Source of the DNA: Escherichia coli | GTDB taxonomy: Bacteria > Pseudomonadota > Gammaproteobacteria > Enterobacterales > Enterobacteriaceae | Assembly (NCBI RefSeq): GCF_041248615.1 | Contig: NZ_CP158426.1 | Reading direction: 5' to 3' (one strand) | DNA: 64,000 nt | Part shown: piece after piece, positions 43,821 to 46,800 of the stretch | Numbering within the stretch: the stretch's first letter is position 1 | Layout: every line of letters begins with the position of its first letter | Made by a program: the position numbers

Positions 43821-46800
43821 TAACCTTTCTGCCATTCCATTACTCTGAGAGCTGCTGATTGCCGTTGTGCAGGGCTCCAGATCCAACTCTCTGGCGAACT
43901 GCCGTGTTTCATGCGCTCTATACGCTGAACCGTTATCTGTCAACCACCGGATGGACTGTTCCGGTACTTTATCGCCAAAGAGTTTTTCTATCGCTCCTAA
44001 CATCACATCCTGCACTGTCGCTTTATTGTAACCTCCCGTATTGGATGCCCAGTCGATAGCTTCACGATCGCAACAGTCCAGGGCGAACGTAACCCGGACT
44101 TTTTCGCCATCATCGCAACCGAACTCAAAGCCATCAGAACATCAACGCTGGTCGCTTTCCTTACCGATATTCGGCCTTTATGTTCCCGCTGCAGTCGTGA
44201 TAGTTTGTCATGTAACAACAGGATATTTTCGCTCATTATCCGGTAAACGCGCTTTGCATTCACTAACGGTAGTCCTTCATTTAGGGACTGCCGCCTGAGT
44301 ATCGCCCAGAACACGGCTTACCGGGGCTATTCCTTGTCCGAAGGTAACAAGGGCACATGCGCTATCCATTTTCGCGATTGCGCATACTCCACCACTTCTT
44401 TGAGGATCTAAACTTCCATGGTTTTTTACCCAGCAAGAGCTGTAACTCTTTTATTTGTTTTATAGCGGCAGGCAGTTCTGAGGCAGGAACGACACCCTCT
44501 CCTGAAGCAACAGCAGTGAGACTTCCTTCCAGAGATTGTTTTTCCACTTAAACAACAGGCAGGGCTGAATACAACGCAAACGCGCCACATGTGACACCGC
44601 CATGCCAGGCTCCATTGTCTGCTGAATAATGCCAATTTTTTCCTGAGGAGTTTTACGTTTACGAAGCTCCAGCCCCGGCAAAGTTCCAGTCATCTCAAAA
44701 TTAGAACCAGTGTCAGACATATATCCAAGCCTGTCTCTTATTTTAAGATACATCCACTATCTGGCGTTTCAAGGGGCTGGTCCAGCTACAAATATTATTG
44801 AAAGAGATTTTTATGAAAACGAAGCTTTTTACGATTTCTATCGGCATTGATGTAATATAGAAGAGTTATATAAATTATTCAAATCAAATTTTCTATTGAA
44901 GATTTTCATTCACAGAGTGAGAAAGATGTAAAATAAAAATACAGGCTCATATATTATTACTTAACCTTACATGGATATCCTGAAATGACATTAATTATTA
45001 AGATAATAACGTTTTCATCGGTAGTAGTAGAAATAAACAAAATTTTAATTTCAAAAACTGCTTGTTTCTCGTAGTGAGGTACTTGTCTTTACTGATTCGG
45101 GTAACAGGAAAACATTTAAAATCATTCTGTTGCGCTCTTTCTGAGAGGCTGATTGCAAAATGGCATCTGAATCGATCGCAGTTGTATGACTCAGCGAGTA
45201 AGGCCAGGGAGGTGTTACCCACGAAAATATGTACGGCCCAGAACGCGCTGGAACTCTTTTGATGCTCCAGCAAGAACTTAACCGAATGCCATTGGTACGC
45301 TGCCCCACAGAAAATTCCGTCACTAATGGCGGTAGCCGACAGATTCACATGGCGTTACCGCAGTAAACCAAGATGGATCTTGATTGCGTCCTCAACAGAC
45401 AACATATCTGCTTTGGACAACGAGCCAATATGTGTTTTGAGACAGGACTTATCCGCCGCCATAATCTGCTCTACAATCGCTTTGCTGCTCTGACACCTAC
45501 GGTCACAACAGCCTCACTTGGATACACTCGCTCTGTGTTACTGGTCAGAGGAACGACGACTACTCGAGCGAGGTTCCTGTTTGCTGCGTCATTGCTCACG
45601 ATCACTGCCGGACATGTCTTGCGGATTTCACTGTCAACAGCAGGATCAAATTCAATCCACCACGTCTCACCTGTGCCGTCACTGCTCTGTCATCTTTCTA
45701 ACACTTTACTGTCTAACACATGTAATAAAAAAGTTATTTTTCTGCAATTCGGGCATGATATTTAATCCCACGAGCATGAAACGTGTGAATTCGCTCATCA
45801 GGTACAACAAGCAAGAGAGATAAACGATGAAACCGTTACATTATACAGCTTCAGCACTGGTGCTCGGACTGACGTTAATGGGGAATGCACAGGCAGTGAC
45901 GACCATTCCGTTCTGGCACTCTATGGAAGGGGAACTGGGTAAAGAGGTGAATTCTCTGGTCCAACGTTTTAACGCCGAAAACCCGGATTACAAAATTATA
46001 CCGACTTATAAAGGCAACTACGAAGAGAGTTTAAGTGCGGGGATCGCAGCATTTCGTACCGGTAACGCTCCGGCTATTTTGCAGGTTTATGAAGTTGGCA
46101 CCGCCACCATGATGGCGTCGAAAGCCATTAAACCGGTGTATGACGTGTTTAAAGAGGCGGGGATTAACTTTGATGAGTCGCAGTTTGTGCCGACGGTTTC
46201 AGGCTACTACTCCGACAGTAAAACCGGACACTTACTCTCCCAGCCGTTCAACAGCTCGACTCCTGTTCTCTATTACAACAAAGATGCTTTCAAGAAAGCA
46301 GGATTAGACCCGGAACAGCCGCCGAAAACCTGGCAGGATCTGGCGGACTATGCCGCGAAACTGAAAGCCTCCGGTATGAAGTGCGGCTACGCCAGCGGCT
46401 GGCAGGGCTGGATCCAACTGGAAAACTTTAGCGCCTGGAACGGTCTGCCGTTTGCCAGCAAAAACAACGGCTTTGACGGCACAGATGCGGTGCTGGAGTT
46501 CAACAAGCCGGAGCAGGTGAAACACATCGCCATGCTCGAAGAGATGAACAAGAAAGGCGATTTCAGCTACGTCGGGCGTAAGGATGAATCCACCGAGAAG
46601 TTCTATAACGGTGATTGCGCAATGACGACTGCCTCTTCTGGTTCTCTTGCCAGCATTCGCGAGTACGCCAAATTCAACTACGGCGTAGGCATGATGCCTT
46701 ACGACGCTGACGCGAAAGATGCACCACAAAACGCCATTATCGGCGGAGCCAGCCTGTGGGTGATGCAGGGCAAAGATAAAGAAACGTATACCGGCGTGGC

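What the first reader, a model, noticed from the sequence alone, without database searches (positions are those of the whole stretch)
45356..45690. MazF/PemK-like toxin pseudogene with no antitoxin, adjoining the ugpB promoter
Manual translation of the reverse strand shows strong MazF/PemK-type core motifs (WWIEFDP...PAVIVSNDA...RVVVVPLTS), then a stop and a frame change before a plausible C-terminus. The expected N-terminal residues and the upstream antitoxin gene are missing: the space is taken by the ugpB promoter. This reads as a toxin-antitoxin locus cut by a rearrangement junction.
Basis: seen in the sequence. Interest (0 to 1): 0.5.

Follow-up and report, generated by a model that had tools for sequence, protein, structure and literature searches.

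The report
Dead MazF toxin remnant beside ugpB
This is the decayed leftover of a MazF/PemK toxin gene that has lost its antitoxin, its start codon, its reading frame and a catalytic residue; it is fused to the promoter of a stray ugpB copy inside an E. coli genomic island, and it is an ordinary piece of genomic debris.

Summary
On the minus strand, 45355-45671 is a PemK/MazF toxin remnant (Pfam PF02452, E 5.5e-21 once the frameshift is repaired; about 80% amino-acid identity to intact 108-aa toxins on two E. coli plasmids).

It carries three independent lesions:
- **5' truncation.** A junction in a 6-bp microhomology (GGTGAG, 45671-45666) replaces codons 1-3, the whole antitoxin gene and the toxin-antitoxin promoter with the Pho-box promoter region of ugpB.
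- **Frameshift.** A 1-nt deletion at 45493/45494 leads to a TAG at 45471-45473.
- **Active-site change.** Cys replaces the catalytic Arg (R25 in B. subtilis MazF, R29 in E. coli MazF).

An antitoxin sits directly upstream of the toxin in 79 of 80 related loci. None is found in the window. By DNA search the family's antitoxin occurs in 2 of 5426 complete E. coli genomes, both on plasmids and neither a listed carrier.

About 195 complete E. coli genomes carry a near-identical remnant (193 at 99% identity or more); the lesions were confirmed base by base in six. This rules out a sequencing error. RefSeq already names it a PemK/MazF family toxin, but as two small live ORFs rather than a pseudogene.

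The adjoining ugpB is an orphan copy in a mosaic island, not the native ugp operon. The finding is ordinary, with low interest.

The parts
45474..45671 (-). N-terminal two-thirds of the PemK/MazF toxin remnant (codons 4 to about 69 of a 108-codon gene), in the original frame. It includes Cys23 (TGT) at the catalytic Arg position.
   Evidence: tblastn 80% identity to pSTEC640_4 toxin residues 4-69; DNA homology to related loci always begins at nucleotide 10 of the toxin gene; C23 aligns with BsMazF R25 and EcMazF R29.
45493..45494 (-). Site of the 1-nt deletion (GGTGGT to GGTGT, codon 63) that shifts the frame.
   Evidence: Alignment with intact plasmid genes shows a single-base gap here; the family consensus is TVGGQSSKAM; the same sequence is present in sampled carriers, with no length difference in any of them.
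45471..45473 (-). Premature TAG stop, seven codons after the frameshift.
   Evidence: Translation; ORF table; RefSeq CDS end.
45355..45492 (-). C-terminal third of the toxin remnant in the shifted frame, ending at the original TAA stop (45355-45357).
   Evidence: tblastn 73% identity to toxin residues 64-108; translation. RefSeq calls 45355-45462 a 35-aa hypothetical protein, WP_001313273.1.
45666..45671 (-). Recombination junction: GGTGAG microhomology shared by toxin codons 4-5 (GGT GAR) and the native ugpB upstream region.
   Evidence: Ungapped three-way comparison. The native ugpB 5' region matches from 45666 onward in 5423 of 5426 E. coli genomes.
45672..45826 (+). ugpB 5' regulatory region retained with the orphan ugpB copy. 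It holds an 11-bp-periodic array of Pho-box-like heptamers starting at about 45676 (CCGTCAC tgct CTGTCAT cttt CTAACAC ttta CTGTCTA ...). It occupies the place where the antitoxin gene and toxin-antitoxin promoter would be.
   Evidence: 82.6-87.2% identity to the native ugpB upstream region across E. coli. The two best Pho-box matches in the window, with 2 mismatches each, are at 45676-45693 and 45687-45704.
45827..47143 (+). Orphan ugpB copy (438 aa, intact). It is followed by an IS110 pseudogene instead of ugpA.
   Evidence: RefSeq annotation; 94.6% nt and 96.8% aa identity to a native ugpB, with 54 synonymous and 14 nonsynonymous codon differences and no homology downstream of the stop.

Best explanation
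The segment 45355-45671 (minus strand) is a non-functional remnant of a plasmid-type mazEF/pemIK-like type II toxin-antitoxin cassette. It has no activity of its own.

Shown: an illegitimate recombination event within a 6-bp microhomology (GGTGAG) joined codon 4 of the toxin gene to a point 161 bp upstream of the ATG of a captured ugpB copy. That point lies just outside the ugpB Pho-box array. The event removed the toxin start codon, codons 1-3, the overlapping antitoxin gene and the toxin-antitoxin promoter. The remnant also carries a 1-nt deletion that truncates the reading frame after about 69 residues, and a Cys in place of the catalytic Arg.

Inferred: one of the toxin-inactivating changes came before or together with the loss of the antitoxin, since an active MazF without its antitoxin would be counter-selected. 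The composite (remnant, ugpB', IS110 pseudogene) then spread as a passive passenger inside a mosaic genomic island, and the remnant keeps decaying; some strains have a further IS3-family insertion.
For: - Family assignment: Pfam PF02452 E 5.5e-21; NCBIfam MazF E 6.8e-10, below the curated cut-off as expected for a diverged relative; PDB MazF9 E 5e-18.
- Intact relatives: 108-aa toxins with an overlapping 76-aa antitoxin on E. coli plasmids pSTEC640_4 and C5 plasmid B.
- Junction. DNA homology to 80 related loci starts at nucleotide 10 of the gene, and 79 of 80 have the antitoxin directly upstream.
- Frameshift.
- Catalytic Arg to Cys. Arg is present in 34 of 35 homologs. Mutating the equivalent Arg24 to Ala in W. 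cibaria PemK reduced mRNA cleavage and toxicity (PMC11130411).
- Relaxed constraint: 10 of 79 conserved columns are changed, against a mean of 1.6 and a maximum of 5 in homologs.
- No antitoxin in the window. The family's antitoxin DNA is in 2 of 5426 E. coli genomes, both plasmids in non-carriers.
- Identical lesions in six sampled carriers and a further IS3 insertion in EC974.
- No sigma-70-like promoter reading into the remnant.
Against: - RefSeq/PGAP annotates the two pieces as live CDSs (WP_089581225.1, 61 aa, and WP_001313273.1, 35 aa), not as a pseudogene. The 61-aa call needs a non-canonical ATT start.
- Near-identity among about 195 carriers neither supports nor excludes selection on the remnant.
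- The antitoxin search in whole genomes was by DNA only (blastn, roughly 70% identity or better), so a very divergent MazE-like antitoxin elsewhere in the genome would be missed.
- No expression data were available.
Confidence: 0.93

Rival explanations
1. The frameshift is a sequencing or assembly error, and the gene is an intact, active toxin.
For: Single-base deletions are a common error type. RefSeq does not flag a pseudogene.
Against: Six independent complete genomes from different hosts and countries have the same 381-nt sequence apart from point substitutions, with no length difference, and all six share the Cys codon and the junction. 193 genomes are at least 99% identical. Even with the frame repaired there is no start codon and no antitoxin, and the catalytic Arg is Cys.
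Confidence: 0.01
2. A truncated product is made and has a residual function, for example as a non-toxic MazF-like subunit or decoy that binds a MazE-type antitoxin or poisons MazF dimers. Candidates are the 44-aa GTG ORF 45471-45605, the 61-aa PGAP ORF, or the 35-aa C-terminal ORF.
For: Small ORFs remain open. PGAP calls them. The sequence is retained in about 195 genomes.
Against: The 44-aa ORF lacks the N-terminal strands of the fold. The 61-aa ORF needs an ATT start. No promoter-like site reads into it. No antitoxin of this family is present in carriers. Conserved positions show excess substitutions. Some strains disrupt it further with an IS. Retention is explained by hitch-hiking with the island.
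Confidence: 0.03
3. The remnant DNA matters in cis: it provides the upstream boundary or an element of the orphan ugpB promoter, or an antisense transcript, and so alters Pho regulation of ugpB'.
For: The junction lies only about 9 bp upstream of the first Pho-box-like heptamer. A weak promoter-like site on the + strand at 45437-45465 points toward ugpB.
Against: The Pho-box array itself is native-type and complete as far as homology shows. One promoter-like site is what shuffled sequence gives (mean 0.9). Nothing requires the remnant.
Confidence: 0.03

Closest known systems
Plasmid-borne PemK/MazF-family toxin with an 'addiction module antitoxin' on E. coli plasmids pSTEC640_4 (CP061001.1, UIV71483.1/UIV71484.1) and C5 plasmid B (NZ_CP010124.1, WP_001559850.1/WP_061358720.1)
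   Same: About 80% amino-acid and 78% nucleotide identity over codons 4-108, with the same length and the same C-terminal end.
   Different: The plasmid loci are intact: a 76-aa antitoxin overlaps the toxin start by 14 nt, the ATG start is present, Arg23 is present and there is no frameshift. The window copy lacks all four features.
The same toxin family in Betaproteobacteria, Acidithiobacillus and Xylella fastidiosa plasmids (PemK / growth inhibitor PemK annotations)
   Same: 68-81% amino-acid identity across 80 species-representative loci and about 3000 database proteins. The family is highly conserved.
   Different: Those are complete two-gene cassettes: 79 of 80 have the antitoxin directly upstream.
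M. tuberculosis MazF9 (MazF-mt1; PDB 5HJZ, 6KYS), B. subtilis MazF/EndoA (4MDX), E. coli MazF (5CR2)
   Same: Same fold family by sequence (E 5e-18, 2e-6 and 1e-4). The catalytic Thr is aligned and retained (T46 = T48 = T52).
   Different: The catalytic Arg (R25/R29) is Cys here, and the gene is truncated and frameshifted.
Native E. coli ugpBAECQ promoter region (PhoB-regulated)
   Same: 45666-45826 is 82.6-87.2% identical to the 161 bp upstream of native ugpB in essentially all E. coli, including the Pho-box-like repeats.
   Different: Here it drives a stand-alone ugpB in a genomic island, with an IS110 pseudogene where ugpA should be. Upstream of -161 the native sequence is replaced by the toxin remnant.

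Membership tests
PemK/MazF toxin family (Pfam PF02452) | Significant match to the PemK_toxin domain over its full length | tested here: met
   E 5.5e-21, model positions 3-108 of 109, on the frameshift-repaired translation. The uninterrupted fragment alone matches NCBIfam MazF at E 1.2e-6.
PemK/MazF toxin family (functional member) | Uninterrupted ORF of about 108 codons with a start codon | tested here: not met
   Codons 1-3 are replaced by ugpB upstream sequence, with no in-frame ATG/GTG/TTG before the core. A 1-nt deletion and TAG at 45471-45473 interrupt the frame.
PemK/MazF toxin family (functional member) | Catalytic Arg (BsMazF R25 / EcMazF R29) and Thr (T48 / T52) | tested here: not met
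   Arg is replaced by Cys23; Thr46 is retained. Arg is present in 34 of 35 close homologs. The importance of this Arg is reported in PMC11130411.
Type II toxin-antitoxin system (mazEF/pemIK type) | Cognate antitoxin gene immediately upstream, usually overlapping the toxin start | tested here: not met
   None in the window (best tblastn E 0.6, elsewhere). The space is ugpB promoter. 79 of 80 related loci have it. The antitoxin DNA is in only 2 of 5426 E. coli genomes, both plasmids.
Type II toxin-antitoxin system (mazEF/pemIK type) | Sequence-specific endoribonuclease activity neutralised by the antitoxin | not testable with these tools
   Needs expression and RNA cleavage assays. Predicted absent from the lesions above.

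The most novel reading that the evidence does not exclude
The remnant is not inert. Either a short MazF-derived peptide from the 44-61-aa or the 35-aa ORF is produced and interferes with other MazF/MazE pairs of the cell, or the fused sequence changes how PhoB controls the orphan ugpB. In either case selection on that activity would help explain why the composite module persists in about 195 avian, human and animal E. coli genomes.
Probability: 0.03. Interest if true: 0.4.

Novelty: already known. Interest (0 to 1): 0.1.

Why it matters
It matters little biologically. Decayed toxin-antitoxin cassettes are common debris in mosaic genomic islands, and this one fits the expected pattern: a toxin gene survives without its antitoxin only once it is disabled.

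There are two practical points:
- RefSeq/PGAP annotates the two pieces as live proteins (WP_089581225.1 'PemK/MazF family toxin' with a non-canonical start, and WP_001313273.1 'hypothetical protein') in about 200 genomes. They would be better flagged as one pseudogene, so that orphan-toxin counts in toxin-antitoxin surveys are not inflated.
- The base-precise junction (GGTGAG microhomology) is a clean marker of a single ancestral rearrangement. It could be used to trace this island module among avian-pathogenic and other extraintestinal E. coli lineages.

Tried and rejected
- **Vestigial antitoxin 3' end.** An initial three-way MAFFT alignment suggested that the stretch just upstream of the toxin (about 45672-45690) might be a vestige of the antitoxin's 3' end. 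I rejected this. The same stretch is 34/40 identical to the native ugpB upstream region and only 10/40 identical to the plasmid locus.
- **Closer intact relative or source locus.** 5.8 billion proteins gave nothing above 81% identity. The best 80 loci kept from a scan of 100,044 species-representative genomes came from Betaproteobacteria, Acidithiobacillus and similar groups, with none named as Enterobacterales. None shares the downstream flank.
- **Downstream flank 44781-45354.** It matches only the same carrier genomes, apart from a 34-nt stretch also found on small plasmids or next to IS elements, so the 3' boundary of the original cassette could not be defined.
- **Common insertion point for toxin-antitoxin cassettes.** I tested whether the junction coincides with a shared cassette insertion point upstream of native ugpB. 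Strain ECA64 has phd-doc between livF and ugpB, but its boundary is 27 bp further upstream (-188 against -161), so it is not the same site.
- **Literature.** Papers on selC-associated islands and the tkt1 island mention neither this remnant nor the orphan ugpB. The original AGI-3 paper is not held in the library. The tkt1 island proved to be a different locus.
- **Pho-box count.** The count of Pho-box matches over the whole window is not above chance (10 observed, 8.6 expected). The argument for a Pho promoter therefore rests on homology to the native promoter and on the tandem arrangement, not on the count.

Full report
**Where the window comes from**

The window is 100% identical over 9211-58500 to Escherichia coli NRZ14408 (NZ_LT599825.1; record coordinate = window + 32000). 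The finding lies in a mosaic genomic island that starts next to setC. The island contains IS debris, a CbtA/YeeU module, an orphan ugpB, sugar-uptake genes, a YadA-like adhesin and transketolase genes. In another carrier, AR_0085, the same module sits in an island integrated at the selenocysteine tRNA gene (selC) with a tyrosine integrase.

**Check of the observation**

- The minus strand of 45470-45659 reads WIEFDPAVDSEIRKTCPAVIVSNDAANRNLARVVVVPLTSNTERVYPSEAVVTVGVRAAKRL*.
- A second frame over 45355-45495 reads ...SSKAIVEQIMAADKSCLKTHIGSLSKADMLSVEDAIKIHLGLLR*.
- Joined, the two pieces match Pfam PemK_toxin (PF02452) at E 5.5e-21 over model positions 3-108 of 109. They also match NCBIfam MazF at E 6.8e-10 and M. 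tuberculosis MazF9 structures at E 5e-18.
- tblastn with an intact plasmid toxin finds two segments, 45671-45474 (80% identity, residues 4-69) and 45492-45358 (73%, residues 64-108), with a joint E of 5.6e-40.

**Intact relatives**

The nearest intact genes in annotated collections are on two E. coli plasmids, pSTEC640_4 and C5 plasmid B. Each has a 108-aa toxin preceded by a 76-aa antitoxin whose end overlaps the toxin start by 14 nt.

A search of 5.8 billion proteins found about 3000 relatives, with none above 81% identity. A scan of one genome per species returned 80 loci. Most are in Comamonadaceae and other Betaproteobacteria, Acidithiobacillus and related groups. In 79 of the 80, a homolog of the plasmid antitoxin ends within 40 nt of the toxin start on the same strand. 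The one exception has the toxin at a contig edge. An upstream antitoxin is therefore a constant feature of this family.

**The 5' junction**

The 161 bp upstream of the ugpB ATG (45666-45826) are 82.6-87.2% identical to the native ugpB upstream region in 5423 of 5426 complete E. coli genomes. The match always stops at 45666. DNA homology to the 80 related toxin loci always begins at nucleotide 10 of the toxin gene, which corresponds to window position 45671.

An ungapped comparison gives these identities:

| Window stretch | Native ugpB upstream (ECA64) | Intact toxin gene (pSTEC640_4) |
|---|---|---|
| 45705-45666 | 34/40 | 10/40 |
| 45665-45630 | 5/36 | 30/36 |

Both parents share GGTGAG (GGTGAA in one plasmid) at 45671-45666. 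The crossover therefore lies in a 5-6 bp microhomology, which is the signature of illegitimate recombination. It removed toxin codons 1-3 (M-x-R), the antitoxin gene and the toxin-antitoxin promoter.

In the toxin frame there is no ATG, GTG or TTG between the upstream TGA (45690-45692) and the conserved core. PGAP's 61-aa CDS starts at an ATT codon.

**The frameshift**

Against the plasmid genes there is a one-base gap at 45493/45494. The window reads GGT GTC AGA where the family consensus TVGGQSSKAM implies GGT GGT CAG. The shifted frame ends at TAG 45471-45473. The remaining 45 codons continue in the other frame to the original TAA at 45355-45357.

**The active site**

Pairwise alignments place Cys23 of the remnant opposite Arg25 of B. 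subtilis MazF and Arg29 of E. coli MazF. They place Thr46 opposite Thr48 and Thr52. That these are the catalytic residues is established knowledge. A paper held here reports that the equivalent Arg24 of W. cibaria PemK is critical, and that its change to Ala reduces mRNA cleavage and toxicity (PMC11130411).

Arg is present at this position in 34 of 35 close homologs. Overall the remnant departs from the family at 10 of 79 columns that are at least 90% conserved. The homologs depart at a mean of 1.6 columns and a maximum of 5. This is what relaxed selection would give.

**Antitoxin elsewhere**

tblastn of the whole window with the plasmid antitoxin finds nothing (best E 0.6). blastn of the antitoxin gene against 5426 complete E. 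coli genomes hits only two plasmids, neither in a listed carrier.

The two intact toxin-antitoxin pairs in the window are of unrelated families: a RelE/ParE toxin with an HTH protein at 13910-14570, and CbtA/YeeU at 40316-41151. The limit of this test is that whole genomes could only be searched at the DNA level.

**Distribution, and exclusion of a sequencing error**

- About 195 of 5426 complete genomes carry at least 80% of the remnant, and 193 have it at 99% identity or more. All of these copies are chromosomal. The only other full-length hit is the 78%-identical intact plasmid gene.
- Six carriers were compared base by base: NRZ14408 (the window itself), AR_0085, A23, E29, 23CRST013 and EC974. 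All have the same junction and the same TGT codon, and none differs in length, so all keep the 1-nt deletion.
- They differ only by single substitutions.
- In EC974-type genomes an IS3-family element has additionally cut the remnant at 45402/45403.

A sequencing artefact is therefore excluded.

**Surroundings**

- **ugpB copy.** The ugpB next door is intact (438 aa) but is not the native operon. It is 94.6% nt and 96.8% aa identical to a native ugpB (54 synonymous and 14 nonsynonymous codon differences). It is followed by an IS110 pseudogene with no trace of ugpA.
- **Its promoter.** Its upstream region keeps an 11-bp-periodic run of Pho-box-like heptamers. The two best matches to the Pho-box consensus in the whole window are at 45676-45693 and 45687-45704. 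The junction therefore lies just outside the promoter's PhoB sites. The Pho-box consensus and PhoB regulation of ugpB are established knowledge (ugpB as a PhoB-activated promoter: PMC4447250). I did not verify the exact native site positions from the literature.
- **Downstream flank.** The sequence downstream of the remnant, 44781-45354, matches nothing outside the carrier genomes. It is followed by IS3-family debris from about 44780.
- **Promoter scan.** No sigma-70-like promoter reads into the remnant.

**Mechanism and history**

Shown:
- The family assignment.
- Three independent inactivating lesions.
- The microhomology junction.
- The absence of an antitoxin in the window, and of the family's antitoxin DNA in the chromosomes of complete E. 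coli genomes.

Inferred:
- The cassette arrived by horizontal transfer, since its relatives are plasmid-borne or found in distant taxa.
- At least one toxin-disabling change preceded or accompanied the loss of the antitoxin, because an active MazF without its antitoxin would arrest growth.
- The composite (remnant, ugpB', IS110 pseudogene) has since been carried passively within the island. The same module occurs in differently arranged islands, and the remnant continues to decay.

**Comparison with what is known, and novelty**

The remnant works like nothing, because it is a pseudogene. By descent it belongs to the PemK/MazF family. As a functional member it fails three of the defining features tested: an intact ORF, the catalytic Arg and a cognate antitoxin.

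RefSeq already names it a PemK/MazF family toxin in every carrier, although as two live ORFs rather than one pseudogene. Nothing here is new in kind.

**Verdict**

The feature is ordinary genomic debris and is of low interest, apart from a small annotation correction and its use as a lineage marker for the island module.

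Noticed in passing
window 45827-47143 (+), with 47278-48279: An intact second ugpB (438 aa; 96.8% aa and 94.6% nt identity to a native ugpB) sits alone in the island with its Pho-box promoter region. It is cut off from ugpAECQ by an IS110 pseudogene. It stays intact in the carriers examined while its neighbours are debris, so it may be under selection as a stand-alone periplasmic binding protein.
   Followed up: partly
L004 (E. coli ECA64, NZ_CM144250.1) 3105-3700; K-12 L007 1259-1500: The livF-ugpB intergenic region is variable among E. coli. ECA64 and about nine other genomes carry a phd-doc toxin-antitoxin pair there, ending 209 bp upstream of native ugpB, with a boundary at about -188. 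This is close to, but not the same as, the -161 junction of the island copy. The region upstream of the ugpB promoter may be a recurrent landing site for toxin-antitoxin cassettes.
   Followed up: partly
window 45471-45656 and 45355-45462 (-): RefSeq/PGAP annotates the two halves of the pseudogene as separate live proteins (WP_089581225.1 with an ATT start, or WP_232380132.1 with a later non-canonical start, and WP_001313273.1 'hypothetical') instead of one frameshifted, truncated pseudogene. The error is propagated across about 200 genomes.
   Followed up: yes
window 13910-14570 (-) and 40316-41151 (-): The window holds two apparently intact toxin-antitoxin pairs of other families. One is a RelE/ParE-family toxin with an HTH protein between yicN and nepI. 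The other is CbtA/YeeU in the island's DUF4942 / antirestriction / JAB module.
   Followed up: no
window 16188-27317 (+) and 27369-34331 (-): An 11-kb inverse autotransporter gene (iatC) contains a long internal array of diverged repeats of about 291 bp (83-86% self-identity, roughly 19620-25165). Next to it lie eilA and a cluster of type III secretion translocon, tip and chaperone genes (IpaD/SipD-like, YopB/SseC-like, SycD-like).
   Followed up: no
P0002 (metagenomic homolog): One otherwise intact 108-aa homolog also has Cys at the catalytic Arg position (RKTCPAV) and PMSSNT instead of PLTSNT. The Arg-to-Cys change (CGT to TGT) may therefore recur in this family.
   Followed up: no
window 45150-45183: A 34-nt stretch of the otherwise unique flank downstream of the remnant is 100% identical to sequence on small E. 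coli and E. fergusonii plasmids and next to IS1/IS30 elements. It may be a fragment of a mobile-element end.
   Followed up: no
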